A stretch of 64,000 nt of DNA from Clostridia bacterium (GTDB lineage: Bacteria; Bacillota; Clostridia; RGIG7378). The stretch lies in assembly GCA_045588325.1 (NCBI GenBank), contig JAZNEA010000104.1, positions 1,560 through 65,559 on the forward strand. Reading direction: 5' to 3'. This document shows positions 4,003-64,000 of the stretch, piece after piece. How positions within the stretch are numbered: position 1 is the first letter of the stretch; each line of letters begins with the position of its first letter. Below the pieces are notes generated by a model. The model worked only from the letters and a program-made list of their open reading frames with translations. It was not told the DNA's origin and searched no databases. The position numbers and the translations under genes were made by a program.

Positions 4003-5925
4003 TTACTTGTTGTTGTAGATAACCTCTACTCCGTCATAGACCTTAAGGCCCTTAACGTTAAGCTGATCTCCTCCAAAAATCTGATCGAAAGGAATTAGAT
4101 TCATGTGACTATCAACGCACTGTGAATGATCGTAATCAGCAGGGAGTCCATCATAACTATAACCGGGCTCAACACGCATGCCGCGTCCACCATTCAAACC
4201 AGGAGTAGGCTCGCAGTAATGATAATTTGCCCAATCACCATAGGTAACGGTTACATTGTTGCAAGTGATGTTGTATTGAGACATATCAGGATAATTAGAA
4301 CCGTCGATTGTAGTTGTCTTCGCCAAACGACCGATAATCATACCGCACATACGATAATTATAATAGTCGTAGGAAGCGGTACAGTCATTGTAAGCATCAA
4401 TACGGCAAGCAATATCTACGTTCTCAAAGTTGTAGGTTGCTCCAGGCTCTCCCTGTCCAACAATACCACCGATAGAGCTGTCAAAGGAGCCCCACAGACC
4501 TGCAAGAACACAATCTTCATCAATGGTAATATTCTTGAAGGTATAGTCGCCTGCACCCGACCAGCCAATAATACCGCCGTTACCGTTGTTGTAGGTTGCT
4601 GAAATGCTATCCTTGATGGTGATGTTTTCAAACACGCAGGTACCAGTAGCGCTGCCCGCAACGAAGGATGTGTCGCCACCCTCAATGTAGCTTTCACCAC
4701 CATTAAGAGTAAGGTTCTTAATGGTTGCGTTGTTCACTTTACCAAACAGGCCGTAGGATCCATAGTGGTCCCAGTCATATCCGAGATCCCAGCCATTTTG
4801 GTAAAGATTATAAATAGTCTTTCCATTACCATCAAAAGTTCCTTCAAAAGTTCCGTTCTTGGACTTATCACCGATCGGTCTAAACGTCAATGGATCGCCG
4901 TCAGCAGAGGGTGTAGTATCTTCGCAGTAAAGATCAAGACCTTTCATCAATGTGAAGGTAACGTCCTTAAATGTAGTGTCACCGGAAACAAGCTCAGCAA
5001 GACCTGCAAGCTGTTCTGCTGTGGTAATAGCATATTCAGTTTTAGGGGAAGCTGGGTCATACCAGGATGTGTCTGCTGTTCCATCCCATGTATCTACAGG
5101 ATCGACCAACAAGGGCTCAAACCATTCCTCTGCATTTTCCTCTGTGGTTCCAAAGCCTGCATCCAGAGCTACCTTTGCATTATCAAAACCATCTGCCTGA
5201 ACTGCCTGAGAAATAACAAGAATGTCGAGCATGCCGTCATCATTGCCATCTATTGCCTCCATATCTTCGTTGGTTGCAGTAGCTACTAAATAAACCTGGG
5301 CAAGGCTGGGATAAGAGGTATCGCCAGCGGGAAGAACGCCGTTCTCGTGTCTCCAGCTACCATCGCTGAGTTGTCCACCAGCATATACATACTCTATCAA
5401 ATAATAATTATTGCCGTTAATTGTGACGATGCCAATAGGATTCTTTGTCCAGGTTGAGTGGTAAGATGAACCAATCAAAGAGCCATCCGTGGAACCACAC
5501 TCGATAGCAACCAGCGTGCGGACGTAAGCATCGGTCCTACCCGTATTCTCAACAGTAACAAACTTATCCTGTGCATTGGGGTTACGGAACACATCCATGC
5601 CGCCATAGGAATCAACCTGTGACATTCTAACAGGGATGCTGTCCCAACCACCTGCACCGTGATTGCTAGGGTCAGTGGCAGGCAACAGTGCCTTATTCTG
5701 CTCAAAATCTTCCAGTACATAGCTGGTGCGATCGTCGATTTGGGCAGTCTTATATGTGCCGTCATCGTTTGTATCACGCTGATACTCATGCTGCTTAATC
5801 TTAACGTTCCCAAGTGTCATAACGTTGATGTCCTCTTCCTGATAGCTCAGATAGGCCAATGTGCCGCCAATAGACAGTGCAACTGTCAGTACGAATACCA
5901 GAGAAATTGTCAAAAACTTCTTCAT
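4003..5925 (-). CDS. Secreted 640-aa protein with SipW-cognate (TasA/camelysin-class) signal peptide and large beta-helix-like C-terminal region
   Basis: N-terminus MKKFLTISLVFVLTVALSIGGTLAYLSYQEE matches the GGTxAY[FL]S[DY] SipW-class signal motif. The body is Gly/Asn/Thr-rich with repeated N-I-T-I-K-like strands. RBS AAAGGATGG; terminator at 3949-3980. Confidence 0.75.
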   Translation of the reverse strand: MKKFLTISLVFVLTVALSIGGTLAYLSYQEEDINVMTLGNVKIKQHEYQRDTNDDGTYKTAQIDDRTSYVLEDFEQNKALLPATDPSNHGAGGWDSIPVRMSQVDSYGGMDVFRNPNAQDKFVTVENTGRTDAYVRTLVAIECGSTDGSLIGSSYHSTWTKNPIGIVTINGNNYYLIEYVYAGGQLSDGSWRHENGVLPAGDTSYPSLAQVYLVATATNEDMEAIDGNDDGMLDILVISQAVQADGFDNAKVALDAGFGTTEENAEEWFEPLLVDPVDTWDGTADTSWYDPASPKTEYAITTAEQLAGLAELVSGDTTFKDVTFTLMKGLDLYCEDTTPSADGDPLTFRPIGDKSKNGTFEGTFDGNGKTIYNLYQNGWDLGYDWDHYGSYGLFGKVNNATIKNLTLNGGESYIEGGDTSFVAGSATGTCVFENITIKDSISATYNNGNGGIIGWSGAGDYTFKNITIDEDCVLAGLWGSFDSSIGGIVGQGEPGATYNFENVDIACRIDAYNDCTASYDYYNYRMCGMIIGRLAKTTTIDGSNYPDMSQYNITCNNVTVTYGDWANYHYCEPTPGLNGGRGMRVEPGYSYDGLPADYDHSQCVDSHMNLIPFDQIFGGDQLNVKGLKVYDGVEVIYNNK

Positions 5926-6541: not shown

Positions 6542-8863
6542 CTATTTGGCCTTTGTCTTAGCCTTAGGGGCGTTGGCTGACACCTTGATAACTATTGGCT
6601 CAGTGCCATCATAGTCCAGCAATAGATTATCTCCATCCTTAATGCTGCCCTCCAGATACATCCTAGCCATGCGCTCCTCCAGGTTGCGCTGGATGCTCCT
6701 CTTGATGGGACGAGCTCCAAATGCATCGTTGCGCTCATAATTGAGCAGGTATTCCTTAAGGCCGTCTGTGACGGAAATGACAATCTTCTTGTCCTGCAGA
6801 TCCTCTGCCAACATATTAATCTGCAAGTCCAGAATCTGTCTGAGTTCAGGCTCGGTAAGCTTATCGAACACTACAATGTCATCAACACGATTAAGGAACT
6901 CTGGTCTGAACAGATTCTTAAGCGCGGACTTAATGCGTGCCTCTGACCTGTCCGTAGTGTCGGAACCAAAACCAACATCTCCAACCTTAAGTGTAGTGCC
7001 TGCATTGGATGTCATAACTATGACAGTATTCTCAAAGTTGACAACTCTGCCCTGGCTATCTGTGAGTCTGCCATCGTCCAGAATCTGCAGCAAAATGTTG
7101 AATACGTCCTGATGGGCCTTCTCAATCTCGTCCAGCAAGATTACTGAGTAGGGTCTGCGTCGAATCTTCTCTGTCAGCTGTCCTGCCTCGTCATATCCCA
7201 CATATCCAGGAGGCGAACCAATCAGCTTAGAGGTCGTATGTTTCTCCATGAACTCAGACATATCCAGTCTGACCATGGCCTCCTCTGTACCAAAGAGCTC
7301 CTGAGTAAGAGCCTTAACCAGCTCTGTCTTACCAACTCCTGTAGGTCCCACAAAGATAAAGGATGCGGGGCGTTTCTTAGCTCTGAGTCCTGCTCTGCAC
7401 CTACGAATGGTAGAAGCAACTGCAGATATGGCCTTTTCCTGGCCAACGACTCTCTTATGCAGGCTCTCCTCTAACTTCAGGAGTCTGGCGCCCTCTTCCT
7501 CCGAAACCTTATTGATCGGGATGCCGGTCCACATCTCTATAACGCCAGCAACATCGTCGAATGTGACCTCAAAGCTATATGCCTCCTCAGCCAAGGCCTT
7601 AACCTTGTCTGCCAAAACACAGGCCTCCTGTCTCATCTGAGCCAGCTTTTCGTAATCTGGCTGAGACCTGGCCTCCTCAACTGCCACGGCTGCCTCTGCA
7701 TCTGCCAGCTTGTCGCTCATCTGATCCAGCTCCTGCAGCTTAACATTCTTGAGGTTGGCCCTGGATGCGGCCTCGTCCATAATGTCTATGGCCTTATCCG
7801 GAAGGAATCTATCTGTAACATATCTCTCTGAAAGGGACACCATCCTCTCCAACACATGGTCGGAAATAGTAACGCCGTGATACTTTTCGTAGTACGGACG
7901 TACCCCCTTCATAATCTCCACAGTATCTGCCATGCTGGGCTCATTGACCATAACGGGCTGGAATCTACGCTCCAGCGCACTGTCCTTTTCGATATGCTTG
8001 CGATACTCGTCAAGGGTGGTTGCACCGATAATGCGCAGTTCTCCTCTGGCCAGAACAGGCTTAAGGATATTGGCGGCATTCATAGCGCCCTCGGCATTGC
8101 CTGCCCCAACAATATTGTGGAGCTCGTCAATAACAAGGATAATGTTGCCACACTTAATTGCCTCGTCTACTACGCCCTTAATTCTGGACTCGAACTGTCC
8201 TCTGAACTGAGTACCAGCTACCATGCCAGTCATGTCCAACTGAATAATTTCGTAGTTCTTAAGTCTCTCAGGAACTCTGCCTTCAGCAATGGCAACCGCC
8301 AATCCCTCTGCAATGGCAGTCTTACCTACACCAGGCTCTCCGATGAGAACTGGGTTGTTCTTTTGTCTACGATTTAATATCTGGATAACCCTATCCAGCT
8401 CCTTGTCTCTGCCGACAATCTTGTCAATCTCGCCACGAGAAGCCTTGTTGGTCAAGTTGCTGCCATACGTCTCCAGGAACTTGTGCTTAACCTTTTTAGG
8501 CTCCTTACCCTCTGCGGCTCCGCGCTCGTCCTTATGCTCCGAGTTAGCCCTGGACTCCTCCTGGAGGCTCTCACTATCTCCCTGCTGCATGGCGCTGTTG
8601 AGTATCTCTTTGAGCATGGCTGGATCAGAAATCTTCTCCAGCATCTCCGGATCTGCATCCTTCATGCTGTCTGTCATCTGCTCACAGAACTCATCCACCT
8701 GGTCTGGGTCAATACCCAACTGCTTAATAACCGAATCTACCATGCCAAGATTCATCTTCTTGGCACAAGATAAACAGAGGAATTCCTGCTTAACTGCAGT
8801 ACCCTCTGACTTCATGATCTGAATCATGGCGACATTCTTTTTGCATTTAGAACACAATTGCAT
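6542..8863 (-). CDS. clpE: ATP-dependent Clp protease ATP-binding subunit, ClpE-type (N-terminal zinc ribbon, two AAA+ modules, ClpP-docking VGF loop)
   Basis: N-terminal CxxC…CxxC motifs (MQLCSKCKK…CLSCAKK). Two Walker A sites (GEPGVGKT, GPTGVGKT), UVR-like coiled coil, and a VGF tripeptide. The ATG at 8863 has RBS GAGAGGTG 6 nt upstream; the ORF track starts 9 nt earlier at a GTG. Confidence 0.85.
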   Translation of the reverse strand: MQLCSKCKKNVAMIQIMKSEGTAVKQEFLCLSCAKKMNLGMVDSVIKQLGIDPDQVDEFCEQMTDSMKDADPEMLEKISDPAMLKEILNSAMQQGDSESLQEESRANSEHKDERGAAEGKEPKKVKHKFLETYGSNLTNKASRGEIDKIVGRDKELDRVIQILNRRQKNNPVLIGEPGVGKTAIAEGLAVAIAEGRVPERLKNYEIIQLDMTGMVAGTQFRGQFESRIKGVVDEAIKCGNIILVIDELHNIVGAGNAEGAMNAANILKPVLARGELRIIGATTLDEYRKHIEKDSALERRFQPVMVNEPSMADTVEIMKGVRPYYEKYHGVTISDHVLERMVSLSERYVTDRFLPDKAIDIMDEAASRANLKNVKLQELDQMSDKLADAEAAVAVEEARSQPDYEKLAQMRQEACVLADKVKALAEEAYSFEVTFDDVAGVIEMWTGIPINKVSEEEGARLLKLEESLHKRVVGQEKAISAVASTIRRCRAGLRAKKRPASFIFVGPTGVGKTELVKALTQELFGTEEAMVRLDMSEFMEKHTTSKLIGSPPGYVGYDEAGQLTEKIRRRPYSVILLDEIEKAHQDVFNILLQILDDGRLTDSQGRVVNFENTVIVMTSNAGTTLKVGDVGFGSDTTDRSEARIKSALKNLFRPEFLNRVDDIVVFDKLTEPELRQILDLQINMLAEDLQDKKIVISVTDGLKEYLLNYERNDAFGARPIKRSIQRNLEERMARMYLEGSIKDGDNLLLDYDGTEPIVIKVSANAPKAKTKAK

Positions 8864-53591: not shown

Positions 53592-53678
53592 TCTACGTTG
53601 TGCCGCCTTGGTGGAATTGGCAGACACAAGGGACTTAAAATCCCTCGATGTAACAGTCGTACCGGTTCAAGTCCGGTA
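53592..53678 (+). tRNA. tRNA-Leu (anticodon UAA), class II with long variable arm, CCA encoded
   Basis: Acceptor stem GCCGCCT/AGGCGGC, anticodon stem AGGGA/TCCCT with loop CUUAAAA, T-arm ACCGG-TTCAAGT-CCGGT, and 3' ACCA. Confidence 0.85.
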
Positions 53679-53684
53679 GGCGGC

Positions 53685-53712
53685 ACCAGCACATAGCAGG
53701 TCTCAGGGCCTG
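53685..53712 (+). terminator. Intrinsic terminator after tRNA-Leu
   Basis: gcagg tctcaggg cctgc followed by tttttgtttt. Confidence 0.6.
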
Positions 53713-54681: not shown

Positions 54682-55428
54682 TTATTGTTGTGGAAATGAG
54701 CGCACTACAAGTCCTGGCTTGCCATACTCAAATGGGCTCCCGTCCACCATGCTGTATGAGCAGCCCGCCTCTGTAGCAATAAGCAGACCTGGGGCGATGT
54801 CCCAAATCTTGTGGTAGTAGGTAATATACATCTGAGCATTGCTGTTTGCCATCATGGCAAAATCCACGCATGCGGCGCCAAAATGCCTGGTCTTAAGGAA
54901 CTTACCCTGCAAGGACTTGACCACCTTAAACTGGTCATCCATGGGTATATCTATGTTGTCGTAATAGTCGCTGATAATAAGTATGCCATCCTTAGGGGCA
55001 ATGTCCCTGTTTACCATAATTCTCTGGCCATTTTTGTAGGCACCTTGACCCTTTTGCGCTGTGTACATGTCTCCGCTAGTGGGAAAATACATGACTGACG
55101 CCACGCACGTCTCCCCCTCAAAGAGGGCCATCTGCACGCCGTACAAATCAATACCTGCAGCATAATTGCAGGTGCCATCAATGGGGTCTATAACAATGGT
55201 AGTCCCCTCCAGCTCCGCATCCGGGTTGTATTCCTCGCTGATTATATTCACATCCGGGCAAAGCTCCCTCAGCCGGCGGATTATCAGATTCTCCGTGTCC
55301 AGGTCGTTTTGCGTCAACAAGTCATTGCGTGTCTTGTGCTCCACAACTCGGACCGTCTGGCATAACAGTTCCTGCCCTGCCTCATGGGCGACGGACGCCA
55401 TTATCCCCAATATTTTCAAATTGTTCAT
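54682..55428 (-). CDS. Inositol-monophosphatase-family (IMPase/SuhB/CysQ-like) phosphatase
   Basis: Motifs ISEE, VIDPIDGT and WDIAPG present; 248 aa. Its start codon overlaps the stop of the upstream TIR-NACHT gene (ATGA). Confidence 0.8.
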   Translation of the reverse strand: MNNLKILGIMASVAHEAGQELLCQTVRVVEHKTRNDLLTQNDLDTENLIIRRLRELCPDVNIISEEYNPDAELEGTTIVIDPIDGTCNYAAGIDLYGVQMALFEGETCVASVMYFPTSGDMYTAQKGQGAYKNGQRIMVNRDIAPKDGILIISDYYDNIDIPMDDQFKVVKSLQGKFLKTRHFGAACVDFAMMANSNAQMYITYYHKIWDIAPGLLIATEAGCSYSMVDGSPFEYGKPGLVVRSFPQQ

Positions 55429-58271
55429 ACCGTCTCTCCGATTCGCAATACAGACTCAATGTATTCTATCCAGCGATCGATGTGCTCATTTTCTTCGTTG
55501 TCCAGCATGACGCGCTTGGACAACAACTTGGACAATCTCTCTGCCACCATATTGCACTCTGCCTTTTCCAGATAGGCATCAATCTCGTCGTAAATGTCCG
55601 CTCCTGCCACAGCGCATTTCAGTCCCTCCTCGCATACGGTCACGTCGTCCCCATGATTTACAAGGGCATCCAGCGCCAGCAAGAAGTTGATCTGTCCCTT
55701 ATCGTACTTGCCAGAAGCCTCTTTGAGCAGCACCCGCAGTTCATCGCGAACACCCTGGGACGACCGCTCCATTATGCGCAGGAACTGTGTGGTGTACTGG
55801 AAACGAATATAGTATCTGTCCACGGTGTTTCTGTTTTCCAGATATATCTCCTCCGCCTTGTCCAGGCAGTCCTCTGCAGCCTCATACTCCTCCTGCCAGA
55901 TATAGCCATATGCCGAAACCCTGTAATCCTCTGCCAAAAACAGCTTGTTTGACGTACGCTTGTCTCCGTCGGGCATCTCGTCAATCTTGCGGGACAGAAT
56001 CTTCACTGCCTTGCGGCAACTCTTGTTGCTCTCGTCAAACCTCAATGTGCTCAGGTAGATTTTGCCGGTGATAAGGTGGGCCAAAGACAGCTCAAACTCG
56101 GCGTCGCTATATGGATTCTCCTCCTCATCTACGGCCAGCTCCGCATATTCTATGCCTCGTTCAAAGCTCTCCAGCGCCTCGTCAAACCTGACCAATTTTC
56201 TCTCGGACAGTCCCTTGACATTGTAAATCTCCGAAAGAATGGCGGAGGTCATCTGCTCCTGTCCCTCTAACTGCAACAGTGCCTCTGCCCTCTTTATGGC
56301 CTTGGCGAAATCCTCCACTATGTAATAGTAGAATACCTTGCCAACCTCGCCCTCCAGGCCCCAGTCTCTGTTGTCCCTGCGAAGGGCTATTGAGAGGCCC
56401 AGGTCCTTGAGCTTAAAGAATTTGCCGGAGTTGTACAGCAGTCTCCTGTGCTCCGAGAATATCCTGATAAATGTGTCAGATGTCAGGTGATCTGTACACA
56501 GGCTCTGGTCGTGCTGATGCAATTTGTCTATCTGACTCAAGTAATTGTCCAACCCGGAGTCGAACTCAAAGAAGTCAATTATGTTTTGCTGGAGGTCATG
56601 GTCCTTAAGTATTTCGGCCAACCTCTTAAAATTGCCCAATTCAATCAGAACAGCCCCAAAATACTTGAGAACATACTTGTTGTTCTGCCACTGGTTGTCG
56701 GCGTACACCTGCTCCACGTATGTCAGCAGTCGCTTATAGCCGTTCTTGCGGCTGATAAAATACACCTGGTCGATATCGTCGCTGGTAAGCCAATCAATAA
56801 TGGACTTGTGCAAAGGCTCGATAAACTTGTCCTTAAGAGGGAACAAGCTGCAGATTGCGGCCAAAATGCGCTTGACATAATACTCGTCCCACCCAAAGAA
56901 GTCCTCCAGGAATGATATCTCTGTAGGTTCCTGCTCGATGCACAGGAACTCCAACAAAGGCTTGACCTCCTCAAAGGAAACAAGATTGTCGCTGCTATTA
57001 TTGAAGATTCGGGAGAAACAGTCGTTGAAAAATCCGTAGATACCAACTGGGAACACGTTTATGTCCCCCAGGGAGAGGTTATCGTCCCTAATCTGCTTAA
57101 CAATCTCTCTGGCGTACAGGAACGAGCCCTCTGACTTGTTGATAAGGATCTCTATCTGGTGCGACCCGGCCTCTGGGAACTGTTTGGTGTAATACTCCCT
57201 AAGATCCTCCTGGGTTTGGGCCTCTGACAGGACGAAAACCTGGGAGATCGGCTTGAGAATCCTGCTGACCTCTGGTTCGTTCCTGCTGGTGAGCACGAAC
57301 TTGAGCCACCAGGGCAACGACTCCCTCGTCCTCTGCAAAATTGAACAAATCTCGTTCCGGCCCATGCCTGAGCACTCATCAAGGGCGTCAATTATGACCA
57401 TCAGCGGCTTGCGATGCTCCAACTTGGCCATAGGCTCTATAATGAGGTATTCGAATATGCGGGTGGCGTTTTTCTCAAAGAGCTTGTCCAGTTCCATAAG
57501 GTTAAGGAGCCTGTCCTTATACTCCGGAATGGCCTCTGCCAGCTGATACGCTACAGATGTAATGATTACCTTGGGATTTACCCTGTCGGAGTTGTTGAAC
57601 CTGCAGAAATGCAAAGCTCCCACCATATCTGGGTAACGCCATGTCAGCATGCTGGATATGGCTGTCTTGCCTGTACCTGGACCTGCGTTCAACCAGAACA
57701 CATTGTTGTTGCTGGTCATAAACTTCTCTACAGCATCGAACACGTCACGGCGGCCACTGAATCCTGTGTAGTAGCCATATGTAAGCTCCTTGGACGAGAT
57801 GGGTTTAAGACTGCTGCGCAGGCGGATCTCTGAGTCAGAAAAGCCCAGCCTGACCTTGCCAGACAAAATCTCAAACAGCTTAGTCAGAACCTTGCGGTAT
57901 TCGGAATCCACCAAATTCCCATCCGGGTCAATGGCGCTAATCAGGCTCAGCCTCTGCTTTTTGTTAATGCTGAGGGGAACTGTAGAATTATCAAGGCAGA
58001 TGGGGATGATCTCGGACTGAACCTCACCTGCACGGCAGAGTTCGTTAAGGCAGTATCCATCGTGGGATACGGAGCGGGCAGAAACCATAAACAAAAAATA
58101 TCTGCAGGCCAGTATATGCTCGTCGATAATCCTCTCCCAGTCGCCCTTGTGCAGGTAGTCCACATCCAGGAATACCTCTATACCATATGTGCGCAGATCA
58201 TCTGCCAAACGCTTGACCACCTGGTCGTGATGACCATGTCCGTAACTGATAAATACCTTGATATTATCCAT
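55425..58271 (-). CDS. TIR-NACHT(STAND NTPase)-TPR protein, bacterial NLR-like; candidate antiphage defence effector (948 aa)
   Basis: N-terminal TIR fold (KVFISYGHGHHDQ…FLFMVSARSVSHDGYCLNELCRAGE, with the conserved xCLxEL glutamate). Walker A LNAGPGTGKTA; NACHT-type Walker B MVIIDALDEC; sensor-1 FVLTSRNE. About 500 aa of helical/TPR-like repeats follow. Confidence 0.8.
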   Translation of the reverse strand: MDNIKVFISYGHGHHDQVVKRLADDLRTYGIEVFLDVDYLHKGDWERIIDEHILACRYFLFMVSARSVSHDGYCLNELCRAGEVQSEIIPICLDNSTVPLSINKKQRLSLISAIDPDGNLVDSEYRKVLTKLFEILSGKVRLGFSDSEIRLRSSLKPISSKELTYGYYTGFSGRRDVFDAVEKFMTSNNNVFWLNAGPGTGKTAISSMLTWRYPDMVGALHFCRFNNSDRVNPKVIITSVAYQLAEAIPEYKDRLLNLMELDKLFEKNATRIFEYLIIEPMAKLEHRKPLMVIIDALDECSGMGRNEICSILQRTRESLPWWLKFVLTSRNEPEVSRILKPISQVFVLSEAQTQEDLREYYTKQFPEAGSHQIEILINKSEGSFLYAREIVKQIRDDNLSLGDINVFPVGIYGFFNDCFSRIFNNSSDNLVSFEEVKPLLEFLCIEQEPTEISFLEDFFGWDEYYVKRILAAICSLFPLKDKFIEPLHKSIIDWLTSDDIDQVYFISRKNGYKRLLTYVEQVYADNQWQNNKYVLKYFGAVLIELGNFKRLAEILKDHDLQQNIIDFFEFDSGLDNYLSQIDKLHQHDQSLCTDHLTSDTFIRIFSEHRRLLYNSGKFFKLKDLGLSIALRRDNRDWGLEGEVGKVFYYYIVEDFAKAIKRAEALLQLEGQEQMTSAILSEIYNVKGLSERKLVRFDEALESFERGIEYAELAVDEEENPYSDAEFELSLAHLITGKIYLSTLRFDESNKSCRKAVKILSRKIDEMPDGDKRTSNKLFLAEDYRVSAYGYIWQEEYEAAEDCLDKAEEIYLENRNTVDRYYIRFQYTTQFLRIMERSSQGVRDELRVLLKEASGKYDKGQINFLLALDALVNHGDDVTVCEEGLKCAVAGADIYDEIDAYLEKAECNMVAERLSKLLSKRVMLDNEENEHIDRWIEYIESVLRIGETV

Positions 58272-58389
58272 TAGTCCCTCTGTCTATATCTGTGATAATT
58301 TTATATTTAAAATGTAGAGCCTTGACCTGGAAAAGTCAACCAAATGAAGGAATGTCTCCCCGACATCTGCCACGTCCCATGCTCATCGC

Positions 58390-59142
58390 CTAGCCCAACA
58401 GCACATCTGTTATGAGCATTACGCAAAATCCAACTAGCAAGGCGTATGTGGCGCCCCTCTCGTTGCCGTGGGAATGGGTCTCTGGTATCATCTCGTCGCT
58501 GATAACATACAACATGGTGCCTCCTGCAAACGCTAGCGCAAATGGCAAAATAGCGCTGGAAATGCTGACTGCAAAGTAGCCTATAAGCGTACCCACAACC
58601 TCCACCAGGCCTGTGCCCATGGCTACCAGAAATGTCTTCTTAGGAGAGACTCCTGCTGCCAGCATGGGGCCAATAATAACCATGCCCTCAGGTATATTCT
58701 GAAGGGCAATACCGCCGGCAATAATTAACGCCTGGGACGTATCACCAGAGCCAAATCCAACGCCTGCCGCAATGCCCTCCGGCAAATTGTGAATGGCAAT
58801 AGCCATAACAAACAGCAGTATCTTATCCAAATTGCCATTGTTATGTGGCTCAGTATCCGCATCCACCATCCTGTGCATGTGGGGGACCAGCTTGTCTATA
58901 AGGTTAAGGCAAACAGCGCCAGCAAAAATGCCCCCAACTGTCATGAGTAGTCCCCATTTGCCACCATACTCCAACGACGGGATAATAAGGCCCAACACCG
59001 CTGCCGCCAACATAACTCCTGCAGCAAACGACAGAACTATATCTGAAAACTTATGGGATATCCTCCTAAAAATAAAGCCTATGGCTGCGCCTACAACTGT
59101 GGCTCCACCAACGCCTATGGCTGTTAACAAAACTTCTTTCAT
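58390..59142 (-). CDS. ZIP-family divalent metal transporter (ZupT-like)
   Basis: HNLPEG and HSHG-type metal-binding motifs across 8 TM helices. Confidence 0.85.
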   Translation of the reverse strand: MKEVLLTAIGVGGATVVGAAIGFIFRRISHKFSDIVLSFAAGVMLAAAVLGLIIPSLEYGGKWGLLMTVGGIFAGAVCLNLIDKLVPHMHRMVDADTEPHNNGNLDKILLFVMAIAIHNLPEGIAAGVGFGSGDTSQALIIAGGIALQNIPEGMVIIGPMLAAGVSPKKTFLVAMGTGLVEVVGTLIGYFAVSISSAILPFALAFAGGTMLYVISDEMIPETHSHGNERGATYALLVGFCVMLITDVLLG

Positions 59143-59446
59143 ATTAATCCCTTGATAAATTATATTTGATTCGATTTTACCCTATTCCGATTGGTTTTTG
59201 AACAGCAAAATCGTCCATGCGTCAGACATTTTCCCATCATAGAGGTCATTTAATGTTGTCGGAGGGCAATGCCGATTTCCGATATTACCAACAGTTGCTC
59301 TGGGAGACCAATGGAAATACAGCTGAGCTCAAAAAGGCTGTTTTGAGGAATCGCTACTCTATTCGTCAACAGGGTCGTAATTACCTAGAAAACAAACCCG
59401 TGCCATTCTAGGCAAGGCGCCTTCTGATCAAAAAGAAAACGAGATG

Positions 59447-59617
59447 GATTACTTATGTCCGTAATTAATACGGTTATAGTTATAAAGCTAGAATCTCAAT
59501 GAAAAACAAAGGCCAGAGCAGGATTTTAAAACCTGACCTGGCCTGGTTAACTATAGTGAGTTTATACCATGGATTCAATAGTTCCTGTTCTATGCAAATA
59601 GCATCACAGAGGGTGTT
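59447..59617. repeat. Direct repeat copy A (about 175 bp, about 88% identical to copy B)
   Basis: …tatagttataaagctagaatctcaatgaaaaacaaaggcc…aaaacctgacctggcctggttaactatagtgagtttataccatggattcaatagttcctgttcta…atcacagagggtgtt, aligned by eye to 62441-62616. Confidence 0.7.
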
Positions 59618-59660
59618 GCACATTTTCATTGCAACTGAAGAATCAGGCGCCTTCATTTTA

Positions 59661-59963
59661 CTACCACTCTATACTCCTAAAATCAGAGACAAACTTTGTA
59701 TGCTGTTTCAGAATTATTGCCCTTCGTTTTCCTTTACAATAATAATTGTTTAGCCATTTTACAAATCCAACTGTCTCTAAAATGGGGGAAAGTTCTCCAT
59801 TTATATTCTCCCAATAATCCGAATCATCCTTAGGTGCTTTGTCAGCAACCCAGAAACTATGTTCGTAAGCAATTTTTATAATAATGGCACTCAACTCCCT
59901 TGGTATTGCAATAATATCAACGTCGTTATAATCATCCTCGAATATGATATTTATTCTTTCCAT
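59661..59963 (-). CDS. Hypothetical 100-aa protein, possible orphan immunity protein of the RHS cluster
   Basis: Good RBS (AGGAGAA), acidic small protein directly downstream of an RHS C-terminal fragment. Confidence 0.4.
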   Translation of the reverse strand: MERINIIFEDDYNDVDIIAIPRELSAIIIKIAYEHSFWVADKAPKDDSDYWENINGELSPILETVGFVKWLNNYYCKGKRRAIILKQHTKFVSDFRSIEW

Positions 59964-59984
59964 AGGCGTTCTCCTATTTTACTT

Positions 59985-60480
59985 CTATCCTTCCATCGGG
60001 AAAGATTCTCCTCCCTGCAGGTTGGTTACTACATAGTATGTATCTTTCAAGCTTCCCTGAATATATTGTATGGCCTCTAACCCTGTCTGTCCATACTGGA
60101 AATACAACTGCAGATTGCTGCATCTGTAATTATAGCTTAGGCAAATCACTATCCTTAAGATTGTAATGTTTTCTATTTGGCGATATATATGCACATCCAG
60201 ACTTAAGACAGGGAGTAATATCTCCGTCTAATATATTCATACTTATGGCCGTATGAGAAGGTGATACTGCCACCATTAGAGGTGTTATTGCCATCTCCGT
60301 ATGTTATCTTGGTTAAGTTCTGGTTAGAGTCATAGGTGTAATTAGCTCTCTTGTAATGAACTTCTTCATATCCAATATAGCTAATACCAGTTAATAACTG
60401 TGTAGAGCTATTATAGTAGAACCTATATTCGCGCTGATTACCATCGCATATGTAATCATCAAATCATTAGATAGTACCTC
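59985..60480 (-). pseudogene. Orphan RHS/YD-repeat C-terminal fragment, disrupted by stop codons
   Basis: Minus-strand translation gives …YRFYYNSSTQLLTGISYIGYEEVHYKRANYTYDSNQNLTKITYGDGNNTSNGGSITFSYGHKY…, preceded by two stops, with further frame breaks toward 59985. Confidence 0.55.
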
Positions 60481-60576
60481 CAACTATATTCTCTAGTTGC
60501 AACCCATTATCGTTATATAGATTTACTGTCACAGCTATGACACTATACATTCTTATTATTTGAGAAAAACGCAAAA

Positions 60577-60612
60577 AGGAGGCCGACTTCAAAACGAAGT
60601 CGGCTCACAAGC
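60577..60612 (-). terminator. Intrinsic terminator downstream of the immunity-like lipoprotein gene
   Basis: GCCGACUUC-GUUUU-GAAGUCGGC hairpin followed by a U-rich tract on the minus strand. Confidence 0.65.
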
Positions 60613-60748
60613 TTTATTTGATTTGATCTGTTGTAATTTATAAACTCTGCGTGCTGTATGTTTTAAAACATTAACTTTATTACATTTTCTCATATAGTAT
60701 CACATGAGGGGACACAATTTTGACGTAGTCCTCTCCTATATTCTCGAA

Positions 60749-61258
60749 TCACTCCTCATACCATATTCTAAGGACTCTACCATCCTTTTTCTGTATAGCT
60801 ATGTTGCACTCATCCCCGATTACAACTTCATCAAGAGATTCCCAAGATTCCCAAAAAGTTACTATCCAAATTTCATCCATTTCATCAAAAAAGACCGCCT
60901 GTACAGCATATCTAGAATATCTATCTGGTTTTTCCATACCATTAAAAACTGCCTGTGCTATGCTAATTGCCACTTCCCTCGTAGAAACTACGTCTCCATA
61001 ATAAGTCCCCATATTTTCCTCCCAGTTTTTATTAGGAAAAATACCCGACTCATAATCTATCATTGTATTCTCTGAATCTCCTTCCATCACATTATTATCT
61101 GTTGTACCGTTTTTCTCTGGTTCTACTGTTGGTGCAGCCGTGGGTGTTGGTTCTGCTGTTGGTGCAGTCGCAATATCTTGTGTTGTTATGTTGCTTTTAC
61201 ATGCTGTGAAAGCAACCACCATAGAAACCACAAAAATTACTGCTAATATTTTCTTCAT
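60749..61258 (-). CDS. Lipoprotein (169 aa), candidate cognate immunity protein, possibly NTF2-like fold
   Basis: Signal peptide with lipobox (AFTAC), Pro/Thr linker, compact C-terminal domain. Sits immediately 3' of the RHS toxin tip. Confidence 0.55.
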   Translation of the reverse strand: MKKILAVIFVVSMVVAFTACKSNITTQDIATAPTAEPTPTAAPTVEPEKNGTTDNNVMEGDSENTMIDYESGIFPNKNWEENMGTYYGDVVSTREVAISIAQAVFNGMEKPDRYSRYAVQAVFFDEMDEIWIVTFWESWESLDEVVIGDECNIAIQKKDGRVLRIWYEE

Positions 61259-61350
61259 ATAACCTCCTTGCTAATACGTTGGCCATGGTTTATTTTTACA
61301 AATAAATGAACATCCTTCCTGTAAATGATTGTACCATGATGATTGAAATT

Positions 61351-62443
61351 CTAACAAAGGGGAATTTTCTGAGAATCTGTCAACGCTATAGGTGTTATCA
61401 TTCCTAAATTTATCGTTGACGCAGACGCAACATTATATTTTAACAATTCTAAATTAGGTCCAACAACATATGCATTTATTCCCCCATTATTAGCAACATT
61501 AATATCTGCTTTAGAAAACGAATTAGAATTTGGATGTGTATGAACATATGCAACCAATGCAGTTCCTGATGGAACTTTTTTACTAACTGTAGCAGAATGA
61601 GGCTTTCCTGATCTAGGATCTGAATAATTATATGTTGTTATGCCAAGGACGGTTCTTGAATAAATCATAGCTGATTATTCGTGTCGTATATAACTACTAG
61701 AACTATATGTTTCTTCCGCAAATGCCCTTGCAGCTTCCTCCTCGGAAGAGAATGGTATGTGTACTGAACCCAATTTTCTCCATGGTAGACTTGCTGGACT
61801 ATTTAAAATATCAACATCAAATATACTTGCTTGAACAGCTACACAAAGTTTACCAAACAAAGCTAATGGAATTTCTCCTGTGCAATCCACCCTATTCACT
61901 GGATTATTGCCACAGTATGCAAACATATTTGCACCTGTCATACCCTGTCCTGTGGATACATAGATATCAGCGTTAATGAACCTACCCCACTCTGGGTTGT
62001 AGTATCTGCTGTTCAGGTAGTAGAATCCTGTCTCTGCGTCGTAGACATATCCCCTGTAACGTCGTCGTCGCGGACTGCGTTTATGTTCGCAACAGCGTCT
62101 GTAGATACTATCTCTTCGCTATTGCACCACACTCTCCGTCGCTCCTCCTCTCCCCAGAAAAGCAAGCATTTCCGGGGGCCCCATTAACCTGTCCCATGTA
62201 CCATCACTTAATGGGTTGCCTATCTGGTCATAGGTTATGGTTTTTCCGTTGTAAGAGGTTAACAAATCACTCCAATCGCTATCTGTGTAGCCATAGGAGA
62301 CAGATTCCAGAACAGTTCCAAGTGTTCCCTCGGTATAGGCATATCTCTTCTTAGAGAGGATGTTACCGCCTAAATCATAAGTGTAGGTCCATGTATCATT
62401 TAATACCTGGTCATTTACTCTGGTAAGCTGGATTGAGGTGGAT
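61351..62443 (-). pseudogene. 5'-truncated RHS-family polymorphic toxin C-terminus (YD repeats, RHS core end, C-terminal toxin domain) with an in-frame TAA
   Basis: Minus strand reads …WTYTYDLGGNILSKKRYAYTEG…GKTITYDQIGNPL…[16 protein letters not shown]…[18 protein letters not shown]…SYIRHE*SAMIYSRTV…HTHPNSNSFSKAD…. The frame is closed 5' by a stop exactly at the boundary of repeat copy B, and there is an in-frame TAA at 61675-61677. Confidence 0.6.
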
Positions 62444-62616
62444 TAAGTATGTACGCAAGTGATACGGCTATAGTTATAAAGATAGAATCTCAACGAGAAA
62501 ACAAAGGCCTGGGTAGAAATTTAAAACCTGACCTGGCCTGGTTAACTATAGTGAGTTTATACCATGGATCCAATAGTTCCTGTTCTACACATATGGTATC
62601 ACAGAGGGTGTTATTT
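62441..62616. repeat. Direct repeat copy B (partner of 59447-59617)
   Basis: See copy A; this copy begins exactly where the RHS reading frame ends. Confidence 0.7.
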
Positions 62617-62649
62617 GTTTTCGCCGCAGTCCAATCGCTCCCTTACAAA

Positions 62650-62690
62650 AAAACACCCCAATTCTGCATTGAACTGGGGTGTTATGTCCT
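62650..62690 (-). terminator. Intrinsic terminator of trpB2-like gene
   Basis: Minus strand cacccca gttcaatgcagaat tggggtg followed by ttttttt. Confidence 0.7.
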
Positions 62691-64000
62691 AAATGTTTGG
62701 CAGCGACTTAAAGCCTCTCTCCAACTCCTCATCTGTTGGAATGTAGTCGCTCATAGTGCCATCGTTAAAGTTCTCGTATGCCTTCAGGTCAAAGTATCCT
62801 GTGCCCGTAAGGCCAAAGAGGATAACCTTTTCCTCTCCTGTCTCCTTGCACTTAAGTGCCTCGTCAATGGCAACCTTAATAGCGTGGCTGCTCTCTGGCG
62901 CTGGCAGGATGCCCTCTACTCTGGCAAACTGAGTAGCTGCCTCGAATACTGCCGTCTGTTCAACGGATCTGGCCTCCATAAGGCCCTGGTCGTAAAGCTC
63001 CGAAACAACACTGTTCATACCATGGTATCTAAGTCCGCCGGAGTGGCTGGAGGATGGGATAAATCCACTGCCCAATGTGTACATCTTGGCCATAGGGCAA
63101 ACTCTACCGGTATCACAGTAATCGTAAGCATATTTGCCACGAGTCAAGCTAGGACAGGATGCAGGCTCAACTGCAATAAACTGATACTCCTGCTCTCCTC
63201 TCAGCATCTCTCCCATAAACGGAGAAATAAGACCGCCCAAGTTGGATCCGCCGCCTGCACAGCCGATAATAATATCCGGCTTAACTCCGTACTTATCCAA
63301 AGCAATCTTTGCCTCGAGTCCTATAACACTCTGGTGCAGCAATACCTGATTAAGCACGCTACCCAGAACATATCTATAACCCTCTGTGTTAGTAGCTGTC
63401 TCAACAGCCTCAGAAATGGCACATCCAAGGGAGCCTCCTGTACCGGGATGCTCCTCCAAAATCCTGCGTCCTACCTCTGTGGTATCAGAAGGTGATGGGG
63501 TAACCTCCGCACCATACGTGCGCATAACCTCTCTGCGGAAAGGCTTTTGCTCATAGCTAACCTTTACCATGTATACGTGACAATCCAGGCCCAGATAGGA
63601 ACAGGCCATAGATGTGGCTGTACCCCACTGTCCGGCACCTGTCTCCGTAGTAACACCCTTGAGCCCCTGATTCTTGGCATAATATGCCTGAGCGATGGCA
63701 GAGTTTAACTTATGGCTGCCGCTGGTGTTGTTGCCCTCAAACTTGTAATAAATCTTGGCAGGTGTCTGGAGCTTCTCCTCCAAACAATATGCCCTGACCA
63801 ATGGGGAGGGTCTGTACATCTTATAGAAATTGCGGATGTCCTCCGGAATTGGGAAATATGCTGTAGTATCGTCCAGCTCCTGCTTAATAAGCTCATCACA
63901 GAAAACATGCTGCAAATCCTCAAATGTAGCAGGCTTGCCTGTGGCAGGATTGATCAGTGGAGCAGGCTTAATCTTCATATCGGCGCGCACATTGTACCAG
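62689..64000 (-). CDS. trpB: Tryptophan synthase beta-subunit-like PLP enzyme, TrpB2 type (N-terminus beyond window end)
   Basis: …RPSPLVRAYCLEEKLQTPAKIYYKFEGNNTSGSHKLNSAIAQAYYAK… with the PLP lysine in GSHK. Frame still open at 64000. Confidence 0.8.
   Translation of the reverse strand, partial: WYNVRADMKIKPAPLINPATGKPATFEDLQHVFCDELIKQELDDTTAYFPIPEDIRNFYKMYRPSPLVRAYCLEEKLQTPAKIYYKFEGNNTSGSHKLNSAIAQAYYAKNQGLKGVTTETGAGQWGTATSMACSYLGLDCHVYMVKVSYEQKPFRREVMRTYGAEVTPSPSDTTEVGRRILEEHPGTGGSLGCAISEAVETATNTEGYRYVLGSVLNQVLLHQSVIGLEAKIALDKYGVKPDIIIGCAGGGSNLGGLISPFMGEMLRGEQEYQFIAVEPASCPSLTRGKYAYDYCDTGRVCPMAKMYTLGSGFIPSSSHSGGLRYHGMNSVVSELYDQGLMEARSVEQTAVFEAATQFARVEGILPAPESSHAIKVAIDEALKCKETGEEKVILFGLTGTGYFDLKAYENFNDGTMSDYIPTDEELERGFKSLPNI

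What the first reader, a model, noticed from the sequence alone, without database searches (positions are those of the whole stretch)
59447..62616. Degraded RHS/YD polymorphic-toxin locus precisely bounded by two ~175-bp direct repeats
Between the repeats lie only C-terminal pieces of RHS genes, in this order along the minus strand:
- a 5'-truncated RHS tail with the [10 protein letters not shown]…[15 protein letters not shown] junction and a C-terminal tip;
- an immunity-like lipoprotein;
- a second YD-repeat fragment riddled with stops;
- a small acidic ORF.
Copy B of the repeat starts exactly at the stop codon that closes the RHS frame on its 5' side, so the truncation point and the repeat boundary coincide. 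That pattern suggests the repeat marks a recombination or insertion junction, or a duplication unit, rather than a chance similarity. The repeat carries no obvious ORF or conserved hairpin (the GGCCAG…CTGGCC stem in copy A is broken in copy B).
Basis: seen in the sequence. Interest (0 to 1): 0.6.

Follow-up and report, generated by a model that had tools for sequence, protein, structure and literature searches.

The report
Degraded RHS toxin island, strain-specific insertion
A 3.3-kb piece of a broken-down RHS toxin/immunity gene array, carrying two old copies of a terminator-bearing spacer, was inserted between two housekeeping genes in one strain of an uncultured Clostridia bacterium; it is an ordinary relic of horizontal transfer, not a new kind of element.

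Summary
The repeat is real. Copy A is 59441-59627 and copy B is 62435-62622. They are about 87% identical over 178 nt, share a 47-nt identical core, and have no third copy in the window.

The repeats do not mark the insertion junctions. Three metagenome contigs of the same species carry an empty site: the TrpB-like gene, 262 nt, then the ZIP gene, with no repeat. The whole segment 59356-62632 (3277 nt, 38% GC against about 49% in the flanks) is therefore a strain-specific insertion. It sits 13 nt after the TrpB-like terminator and is flanked by a 7-bp duplication, AATCGCT. Both repeat copies lie inside it.

Three other contigs match its central 1.8 kb at 99.4% identity with an intact RHS tail, DUF4329 (Tox-JAB-2) toxin and immunity gene. 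The window copy is a decayed derivative: a nonsense codon, a frameshift and at least three deletions or breakpoints.

The repeat copies differ by 12%, against 0.6-2.4% for everything else, so the duplication predates the insertion. On the gene strand each copy carries a terminator-like hairpin plus a U-run. Copy A follows an immunity-like ORF. Copy B abuts a truncated RHS core within 5 nt.

My best reading is that the repeat is a repeated 3'-UTR/terminator segment at module boundaries of a donor orphan array. No homologue was found in any collection searched. Interest is low.

The parts
59349..59355 (.). Left copy of the 7-bp duplication AATCGCT that flanks the insertion. The empty site has a single copy.
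   Evidence: L001 positions 7284-7290 align to both 59349-59355 and 62633-62639.
59356..59440 (-). 85-nt end segment of the insert, of unknown origin. On the gene strand it lies distal to repeat copy A.
   Evidence: It is absent from empty-site contigs. It has no similarity to any fetched locus.
59441..59627 (-). Repeat copy A (R-A). It starts about 35 nt after the stop of the immunity-like ORF.
59497..59544 (-). Terminator-like hairpin (59544-59510, -19.5 kcal/mol) plus the U-run UUUGUUUUUCAUU, inside R-A.
   Evidence: z = -2.7.
59661..59963 (-). 100-aa mildly acidic ORF (pI 5.1), immunity-like.
   Evidence: Homologues are 58% and 53% identical. The 53% homologue directly follows a PT-HINT toxin gene on L009. 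It matches no Pfam or NCBIfam family.
59988..60117 (-). Fragment from the end of an RHS core (LQLYFQYGQTG...YYVVTNLQG), truncated before the tail.
   Evidence: It is 90% identical to L012:49-154, the RHS core just upstream of the tail.
60206..60463 (-). 5' part of a second RHS orphan (RHS2). It has a 145-nt deletion at 60285-60293 and a breakpoint at 60243.
   Evidence: L010 carries a 636-aa open version. There is a 9-nt overlap at the deletion junction.
60582..60604 (-). Intrinsic terminator after the immunity gene.
   Evidence: -16.4 kcal/mol, z = -4.6.
60749..61258 (-). 169-aa lipoprotein, the putative immunity protein for the DUF4329 toxin. The ORF is intact.
   Evidence: It has a weak Imm-NTF2-2 hit. 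The same toxin-immunity order occurs in L004. Cluster mates of at least 90% identity lie on L010-L012. The Tox-JAB-2/Imm-NTF2-2 pairing is described in PMC3482391.
61351..62061 (-). RHS tail (TIGR03696) plus a DUF4329/Tox-JAB-2 toxin domain, now a pseudogene. TAT became TAA at 61675, and there is a 1-nt deletion at about 61364.
   Evidence: It is 99.4% identical to the intact genes on L010 and L012.
62062..62434 (-). Earlier YD-repeat part of an RHS core. It is joined to the tail by an internal deletion and is 5'-truncated at the edge of copy B.
   Evidence: 72% identity to P0065. L012 shows an uninterrupted core upstream of 62061.
62435..62622 (-). Repeat copy B (R-B). A weakened hairpin lies at 62539-62505 (-12.9 kcal/mol).
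62623..62632 (-). Last 10 nt of the insert, between R-B and the junction.
62633..62639 (.). Right copy of the 7-bp duplication AATCGCT.
62652..62683 (-). Host intrinsic terminator of the TrpB-like gene. The insertion point is 13 nt past its U-run.
   Evidence: -20.8 kcal/mol, z = -5.0. It is present in empty-site contigs.

Best explanation
Window 59356-62632 is a strain-specific, horizontally acquired 3277-nt fragment of a degenerate 'orphan' RHS toxin/immunity array. It was inserted into the spacer between a TrpB-like PLP enzyme gene and a ZIP/ZupT transporter gene, 13 nt after the first gene's terminator.

**Shown.**
- Related strains have the uninterrupted site.
- The insert is flanked by a 7-bp duplication, AATCGCT.
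- It is AT-richer than the host.
- Its central 1.8 kb is 99.4% identical to intact RHS-tail/Tox-JAB-2 toxin plus immunity genes in other metagenomes.
- The window copy is inactivated by a nonsense codon, a frameshift and several deletions.

**Inferred.**
- The two 187-nt repeats came in with the fragment and are much older than the insertion.
- Each is a copy of a 3'-UTR/terminator segment that closes a toxin-immunity module. Copy A follows an immunity-like ORF. Copy B is what remains of the preceding module's end, and is immediately followed by a truncated RHS core.
- This is the layout expected when incoming RHS tips displace older ones downstream (C-terminal displacement).
- The fragment probably integrated as a circular intermediate through one crossover at the 7-bp identity, either illegitimately or by a recombinase supplied in trans.
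- The repeats have no current function here.
For: **Empty sites and the insertion.**
- L001, L002 and L003 align to the window up to 59355 and from 62633 onward, at 97.6-99.4% identity. A 7-nt overlap corresponds to AATCGCT.
- The insert is 38.2% GC. The flanks are 48.6% and 49.3%.

**Donor-like contigs.**
- L010, L011 and L012 match 62061-60285 at 99.4% identity.
- In them the toxin is open: Tyr where the window has a stop at 61675, and no 1-nt deletion at 61364.
- The RHS core is continuous upstream, and RHS2 is longer.

**Family assignments.**
- TIGR03696 scores 66.6 bits and DUF4329 scores 37 bits, both above their cut-offs.
- The Tox-JAB-2/Imm-NTF2-2/RHS association is described in PMC3482391.

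**Age of the repeat.**
- There are 22 mismatches and 1 indel in 178 columns.
- The central segment shows 10 substitutions in 1765 nt against its relatives.

**Terminator-like hairpin.** A hairpin plus U-run lies on the gene strand in both copies.

**Sharp R-B/RHS junction.**

**Published model.** A circular-intermediate model for RHS tip displacement is set out in PMC2935791.

**Variable spacer.** The TrpB-like/ZIP spacer is 123 nt, 262 nt, 469 nt (with an 89-aa Zn-ribbon ORF) or 3.5 kb in related contigs.
Against: **No donor context for the repeat.** No contig containing the repeat in its original setting was found. Its role as a module-boundary 3' segment rests on two copies in one assembly.

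**No homologue anywhere searched.**
- Species-representative genomes, JGI metagenomes and IMG/VR. These were exact-match scans with one to three short (21-30 nt) patterns per collection, so diverged copies would be missed.
- Plasmids and phages.
- 27 fetched loci, by nhmmer.
- Protein level: the 58-aa ORF over copy A matches only itself among 1.84 billion representatives.

**No intact rhs gene nearby.** None lies in the 64-kb window, so this is not itself a displacement array in place.

**Mechanism unresolved.** The 7-bp duplication would equally fit a transposase-made target-site duplication.

**Limited independent support.** The junctions with the repeats and the large internal deletions are seen in one assembly only. 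The independent contigs cover only 62061-60243.
Confidence: 0.55

Rival explanations
1. The two repeats are remnants or ends of a small mobile element (an IS end or a MITE) in direct orientation. Together they form a composite-transposon-like unit that carried the RHS fragment here. The 7-bp AATCGCT would then be a target-site duplication made by a transposase acting in trans.
For: - A clean 7-bp flanking duplication, with no loss of host sequence.
- A repeat copy lies near each end of the insert.
- Copy B cuts an RHS reading frame abruptly, as an insertion would.
- A 10-mer, AGGCGCCTTC, occurs on both sides of copy A at 59415-24 and 59645-54.
Against: - There are no terminal inverted repeats at the insert ends or at the ends of either repeat copy. 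Alignment scores are at shuffle level, and no inverted repeat of 30 nt or more was found.
- There is no transposase ORF, and the peptide encoded by the repeat has no relatives.
- The insert ends are asymmetric relative to the repeats: 85 nt on one side, 10-20 nt on the other.
- No other copy turned up in any searched collection.
- The 10-mer is not matched around copy B and is not significant in a gapped-alignment shuffle test.
Confidence: 0.15
2. The repeats are cis-acting recombination sites of a cassette system for toxin/immunity modules. They would be analogous to integron attC sites, or to the repetitive intergenic sequences of Bacteroidales rAID-1 arrays, and would be used by a recombinase encoded elsewhere. 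The AATCGCT would be the crossover core.
For: - A 7-bp identity at both junctions is the size of a tyrosine-recombinase overlap region (established knowledge), as seen.
- Copy B ends 10-20 nt from the junction.
- The 9-mer TGAAGAATC lies just past copy A (59636-44), within about 3 nt of the position equivalent to copy B's junction. It equals the empty-site target TGAAGAATC(GCT).
- rAID-1 arrays of orphan immunity genes do have repeated intergenic sequences (bioRxiv 10.1101/471110).
- The same spacer holds different cargo in related strains.
Against: - No recombinase gene lies in or next to the insert.
- There are only two copies.
- The copies share no attC-like folded structure. Copy B folds no better than shuffles.
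- Outside the 7 bp, the circle junction and the target share nothing.
- The 9-mer match is post hoc and reaches its score in 4% of shuffles.
- L025's alternative cargo replaces the terminator rather than inserting at the same point.
Confidence: 0.1
3. Part of the structure is a metagenome-assembly artefact, either the repeat junctions or the internal RHS deletions. RHS paralogues and the 47-nt identical core of the repeat could make an assembler switch paths.
For: - The nearest named relative of a host protein is from a MAG.
- RHS contigs in the databases are short and break within RHS genes.
- Nothing independent confirms the sequence at 62062-62632 or 59356-60242.
Against: - Both host junctions are exact, with only 7 bp shared, which is far below any assembler k-mer.
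- The central 1.8 kb is colinear with three independent assemblies.
- The point lesions and the 145-nt deletion with 9-nt microhomology look biological.
Confidence: 0.05
4. The repeat encodes a structured non-coding RNA or a small protein with its own function.
For: - Copy A folds somewhat better than shuffles, with z = -2.1 on the - strand and -3.1 on the + strand.
- A 58-aa ORF overlapping copy A was called in the source record.
Against: - No Rfam match at E <= 1.
- Copy B folds like shuffles.
- A 1-nt indel between the copies breaks any frame that spans the repeat.
- By my count from the translations, about 7 of 12 substitutions in the minus frame change the amino acid, and in the + strand frame the copies differ at 12 amino-acid positions.
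- The peptide has no relative among 1.84 billion proteins.
Confidence: 0.03

Closest known systems
Dissociated ('orphan') rhs core-fragment/tip/immunity modules produced by C-terminal displacement (Jackson et al. 2009, PMC2935791)
   Same: - GC-poor strings of 5'-truncated RHS core fragments of variable length.
- Each fragment carries a tip (toxin) and is followed by an immunity gene.
- The published model proposes movement through an episomal circle.
   Different: - Here the modules are not downstream of an intact rhs gene. They sit alone between two housekeeping genes as a 3.3-kb insertion.
- The insertion is at a 7-bp identity, not within rhs core homology.
- The host is a Clostridia bacterium, not an enterobacterium.
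- The flanking repeat is non-coding rather than core sequence.
RHS-Tox-JAB-2 (DUF4329) toxins with Imm-NTF2-2 immunity proteins (Zhang et al. 2012, PMC3482391)
   Same: - The toxin domain hits DUF4329 above Pfam's cut-off.
- It follows an RHS-associated core domain.
- The next gene has a weak Imm-NTF2-2 match.
   Different: - The toxin is a pseudogene in the window.
- The immunity protein has a lipoprotein signal peptide, and its Imm-NTF2-2 score is below the cut-off.
rAID-1 recombinase-associated orphan immunity arrays of Bacteroidales (Ross et al., bioRxiv 10.1101/471110)
   Same: - Low-GC acquired clusters of orphan immunity genes and toxin remnants.
- Repeated intergenic sequences.
   Different: - There is no adjacent XerD-like recombinase.
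- There are only two repeat copies.
- The phylum is different.
- The repeat shows no integron-like structure.

Membership tests
RHS/YD polymorphic toxin | YD/RHS repeats forming the shell | tested here: inconclusive
   Window fragments hit PF05593 only below the cut-off (14 and 20.7 bits against 22). The near-identical longer RHS2 on L010 hits TIGR01643 at 38 bits against 15.8. BLASTP gives 60-72% identity to RHS-annotated proteins.
RHS/YD polymorphic toxin | RHS-associated core domain (TIGR03696) at the core/tip boundary | tested here: met
   66.6 bits against a cut-off of 32.5 for the window translation, and 74.2 bits for L012.
RHS/YD polymorphic toxin | Variable C-terminal toxin domain followed by a cognate immunity gene | tested here: met
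   DUF4329/Tox-JAB-2 scores 37 bits against 28.6. The downstream lipoprotein has a weak Imm-NTF2-2 hit. L004 has the same gene order. The pairing is described in PMC3482391.
RHS/YD polymorphic toxin | Intact full-length gene with an N-terminal secretion or delivery region | tested here: not met
   The gene is 5'-truncated at 62434. It has an internal deletion at 62061, a stop at 61675 and a frameshift at 61364. What remains is a relic, not a working toxin gene.
Orphan rhs array formed in place by C-terminal displacement | Core-fragment/tip modules lying directly downstream of an intact rhs gene of the same clade | tested here: not met
   No ORF of 150 aa or more in the insert is RHS, and the neighbouring genes are the TrpB-like gene and ZIP. 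The rest of the 64-kb window was not screened for rhs genes. The array architecture is inferred for the donor, not for this site.
rAID-1 / integron-like cassette array | Adjacent tyrosine recombinase (XerD-like or IntI) | tested here: not met
   The flanking genes are the TrpB-like enzyme, ZIP and a TIR-STAND protein. There is no recombinase in the insert.
rAID-1 / integron-like cassette array | Repeated intergenic recombination sites with a conserved foldable structure | tested here: inconclusive
   A repeat is present in two copies. No fold is shared beyond a decayed terminator hairpin.
IS / MITE / composite transposon | Terminal inverted repeats and a transposase (or many genomic copies, for a MITE) | tested here: not met
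   There are no inverted repeats, no transposase and no further copies in any collection searched. Only the 7-bp duplication fits.
Known structured RNA family (Rfam) | A match to a covariance model | tested here: not met
   No match at E <= 1 in 58000-64000. The only tRNA gene in the window is at 53602-53688.

The most novel reading that the evidence does not exclude
The 187-nt repeat could be a cis-acting site of a so-far undescribed cassette system in Clostridia. Such a system would move orphan RHS toxin/immunity modules as circles and insert them at short AATC-type cores just downstream of terminators, using a recombinase encoded elsewhere. It would be a Firmicutes counterpart of integrons or rAID-1 arrays.
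Probability: 0.08. Interest if true: 0.6.

Novelty: new member of a known kind. Interest (0 to 1): 0.22.

Why it matters
This is a clean natural example, with both the empty site and the intact donor-like genes in hand, of polymorphic-toxin debris moving between gut Clostridia and decaying quickly. The toxin is knocked out while the immunity ORF stays intact, which fits retention of orphan immunity as a defence. It also shows that a pair of repeats flanking an island need not be its attachment sites. Beyond that it does not change what is known about RHS systems. The only open point is the origin of the repeat itself.

Tried and rejected
**Structured RNA or tRNA-type att site.** Rejected. There are no Rfam hits and no tRNA or tmRNA at the locus, and no fold is shared by the copies.

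**Coding repeat.** Rejected. There are no Pfam hits. The 58-aa ORF is a singleton among 15 billion proteins and has no HMMER relative among 1.84 billion. The substitution pattern shows no sign of constraint.

**attL/attR made by integration.** Rejected. The empty site lacks the repeat.

**Rolling-circle or terminal-redundancy origin, or tandem duplication.** Rejected. Only the 187 nt are duplicated and the copies are 12% diverged. The 85 nt beyond copy A does not match the sequence before copy B.

**Searches for the repeat elsewhere.**
- Exact patterns in genome contigs, metagenome contigs (two scans) and viral contigs (three scans) gave nothing. The one exception was a 22-nt chance match on L019 with no extended similarity.
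- blastn against plasmids and phages gave nothing.
- nhmmer over 248 kb of fetched loci gave nothing.

**Search for the immunity gene in species-representative genomes.** Only signal-peptide matches came back.

**Exact look-ups.** Look-ups of window proteins from the insert and of the TIR-STAND protein were not on record.

**Circular permutation.** I tested whether similarity continues past copy B into the 85-nt end, as a circle would predict. It is not significant.

**L004.** I looked for the same 'repeat abutting a truncated core' layout. A terminator-like direct repeat flanks that orphan cluster, but it lies 200 nt from the RHS fragment, so it is not the same architecture.
Full report
**1.

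The repeat finder, MAFFT and blastn all recover two direct copies. The region 59441-59617 matches 62435-62612 at 87.6% identity over 178 columns with one 1-nt indel. Weak similarity continues to about 59627/62622. A 47-nt core is identical in both copies, and no shuffle of the window gave two matches to it. A profile of the two copies finds no third copy in the 64-kb window.

- An RHS fragment (62434-62062) is joined to an RHS tail carrying [10 protein letters not shown]...[12 protein letters not shown]. The tail hits TIGR03696 at 66.6 bits against a cut-off of 32.5.
- A DUF4329 (Tox-JAB-2) domain follows, at 37 bits against a cut-off of 28.6.
- A 169-aa lipoprotein has a weak Imm-NTF2-2 hit.
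- An intrinsic terminator lies at 60604-60582.
- A second, stop-riddled YD fragment follows.
- The last gene is a 100-aa ORF with pI 5.1.

RHS homology to other proteins starts at Gln 62430. That is within 5 nt of the end of copy B at 62435, so the truncation point and the repeat edge do coincide.

**2. The repeats are not the junctions of the insertion.**

The ZIP protein next to the locus is encoded on three Logan contigs, L001-L003. In all three, the TrpB-like PLP enzyme gene is followed after 262 nt by the ZIP gene, with no repeat and no RHS sequence.

megablast places the breakpoints exactly:
- The contigs match the window up to 59355 and from 62633 onward, at 97.6-99.4% identity.
- A 7-nt stretch of the contig (AGCGATT on its strand) aligns to both 59349-59355 and 62633-62639.

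The foreign segment is therefore 59356-62632, 3277 nt, flanked by a 7-bp duplication, AATCGCT. It lies 13 nt past the U-run of the TrpB-like gene's terminator (62683-62652). It is 38.2% GC against 48.6% and 49.3% in the flanks. Copy A lies 85 nt inside one end. Copy B lies 10-20 nt inside the other.

**3. The insert is a decayed copy of genes that are intact elsewhere.**

The immunity lipoprotein has cluster mates of at least 90% identity. Their contigs, L010-L012 from three different samples, match window 62061-60285 at 99.4% identity. There the RHS tail and toxin form one open frame.

Relative to those contigs, the window carries these lesions:
- TAT became TAA at 61675.
- A 1-nt deletion lies at about 61364.
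- A 145-nt deletion with a 9-nt overlap lies at 60285-60293.
- A breakpoint lies at 60243.
- A breakpoint at 62061 joins an earlier part of an RHS core directly to the tail.

L012 shows an uninterrupted core upstream of that last breakpoint. L010 shows that the gene after the immunity gene is a much longer RHS, at least 636 aa.

The piece at 60117-60013 is 90% identical to the core end on L012. It stops at NLQG, just before where a tail would begin.

The following 100-aa ORF has only two distant relatives, at 58% and 53% identity. One of them directly follows a PT-HINT toxin gene on L009, which supports an immunity role.

The immunity lipoprotein ORF is the only gene of this toxin-immunity pair left intact.

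**4. Age of the repeat.**

| Comparison | Divergence |
|---|---|
| Repeat copy A against copy B | about 12% |
| Central 1.8 kb against donor-like contigs | 0.6% |
| Host flanks against empty-site strains | 0.6-2.4% |

The duplication of the repeat therefore long predates the insertion. It cannot have been generated by the insertion. Both copies came in as part of the fragment.

**5. What the repeat is.**

Several possibilities were excluded:
- No Rfam family matches, and there is no tRNA or tmRNA at the locus.
- The copies share no overall fold. Copy B folds like shuffled sequence on both strands.
- There are no terminal inverted repeats at the ends of the insert or of either copy.
- It is unlikely to be coding. 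A 1-nt indel separates the copies, and most substitutions change the amino acid in every open frame. The 58-aa ORF over copy A is a singleton among 15 billion proteins and has no HMMER relative among 1.84 billion representatives.

What the copies do share lies on the gene (minus) strand. It is a hairpin followed by a U-run:
- Copy A: GGCCAGGUCAGG...CCUGCUCUGGCC, then UUUGUUUUUCAUU, at -19.5 kcal/mol and z = -2.7.
- Copy B: four substitutions on the 3' arm weaken the hairpin to -12.9 kcal/mol.

Copy A begins about 35 nt after the stop codon of the immunity-like ORF. Copy B is followed at once by a truncated RHS core.

The simplest reading is that the repeat is the 3'-UTR/terminator tail of a toxin-immunity module. 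On this reading it occurs twice because the donor locus was an array of modules stacked by the kind of tip displacement described for rhs loci (PMC2935791). Each module ends with its 3' tail, and the next displaced module begins with a core fragment of arbitrary length. This step is inference. No donor contig reaching the repeat could be found.

**6. How the fragment got in.**

A 7-bp direct duplication with no loss of host sequence fits either of two routes:
- One crossover between a circular molecule and the chromosome at a 7-bp identity. This could be illegitimate, or carried out by a tyrosine-type recombinase supplied in trans.
- A transposase-made target duplication.

The rhs displacement model already invokes episomal circles. 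I favour the circle route, because the insert has no inverted termini, no transposase, and ends that are asymmetric relative to the repeats.

Two post-hoc coincidences are recorded but not relied on:
- The 9-mer TGAAGAATC just past copy A equals the target sequence in the empty site. Its score is reached in 4% of shuffles.
- A 10-mer, AGGCGCCTTC, lies on both sides of copy A.

The spacer itself is variable among relatives. It is 123 nt in a sister lineage, where the TrpB-like protein is 96% identical. It is 469 nt with an 89-aa Zn-ribbon ORF in L025, 262 nt in L001-L003, and 3.5 kb in the window.

**7. Searches for the repeat elsewhere all failed.**

- Exact-pattern scans of species-representative genomes, JGI metagenomes and IMG/VR gave nothing. 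The single hit, L019, is a bare 22-mer with no extended similarity.
- blastn against plasmids and phages gave nothing.
- The immunity gene has no true relative in the species-representative genomes.

ENA and Logan assemblies, where the donor-like contigs live, cannot be searched by DNA with these tools. That is the main gap.

**8. Comparison with known systems.**

The toxin-immunity content is a textbook RHS-Tox-JAB-2/Imm-NTF2-2 pair (PMC3482391). The layout is that of dissociated rhs tips (PMC2935791), but stranded away from any intact rhs gene.

The nearest known arrays with repeated intergenic sequences are the Bacteroidales rAID-1 clusters (bioRxiv 10.1101/471110). Their defining recombinase is absent here, so this locus is not a member of that family.

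The host is an uncultured Clostridia bacterium, judging from the name attached to the 96%-identical TrpB-like protein.

**9. Caveats.**

- The repeat junctions and the outer parts of the insert rest on one assembly, which is probably a MAG.
- Independent contigs confirm only 62061-60243.
- The nature of the repeat is inferred from two copies.

**Verdict.**

The repeat is real and the description is accurate. The locus is an ordinary, recently acquired and rapidly decaying fragment of an orphan RHS array. The repeats are old internal features of that fragment, not the marks of its insertion. Interest is low (0.22). It is a new member of a known kind.

Noticed in passing
window 55425-58271 (-): A 948-aa protein with an N-terminal TIR domain, an NPHP3_N/STAND NTPase domain and C-terminal TPRs. 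It has weak PADLOC TIR-effector hits and looks like a defence gene. It is conserved next to ZIP in the empty-site strains as well, so it is not part of the insertion.
   Followed up: partly
window 59143-59355 and 62640-62688; L020:6842-6964; L025:3883-4350: The spacer between the TrpB-like gene and ZIP is a variable spot among relatives. It is 123 nt in most sister-lineage contigs. In L025 it is 469 nt with a different terminator and an 89-aa double Zn-ribbon ORF. It is 262 nt in L001-L003.
   Followed up: partly
window 59217-59411 (+): A 64-aa ORF runs across the left insertion junction. In the empty-site strains its first 44 or so codons (MHQTFSHHRGHLMLSEGNADF...) are present and then read on into the neighbouring terminator. 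The roughly 150-nt segment that holds it is absent from the sister lineage. It may be the stub of an older lost gene that ends close to where the RHS fragment later inserted. It matches no Pfam family.
   Followed up: partly
L004:3-59 and 5035-5091: Another orphan cluster (RHS-DUF4329, Imm-NTF2-2 and four small ORFs) is flanked by a direct repeat of at least 57 nt. The repeat contains the 3' half of a terminator hairpin and its U-run. The left copy is cut off by the end of the contig.
   Followed up: partly
L006:6911-7944; L007:2422-3455: The 58%-identical homologue of the immunity-like ORF lies about 300 nt downstream of a tmRNA gene. This suggests a small island at ssrA. These contigs come from the same samples as sister-lineage TrpB-like/ZIP contigs: ERZ28633363 and ERZ27297760.
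   Followed up: partly
window 59636-59644 and 59415-59424 / 59645-59654: TGAAGAATC just past repeat copy A is identical to the chromosomal target in the empty site. A 10-mer, AGGCGCCTTC, occurs on both sides of copy A. Both were noticed post hoc and are of borderline significance.
   Followed up: partly
window 60285-60293: The 145-nt deletion in the second RHS fragment, relative to L010 and L011, has a 9-nt sequence shared by both deletion ends. This is typical of microhomology-mediated deletion.
   Followed up: yes
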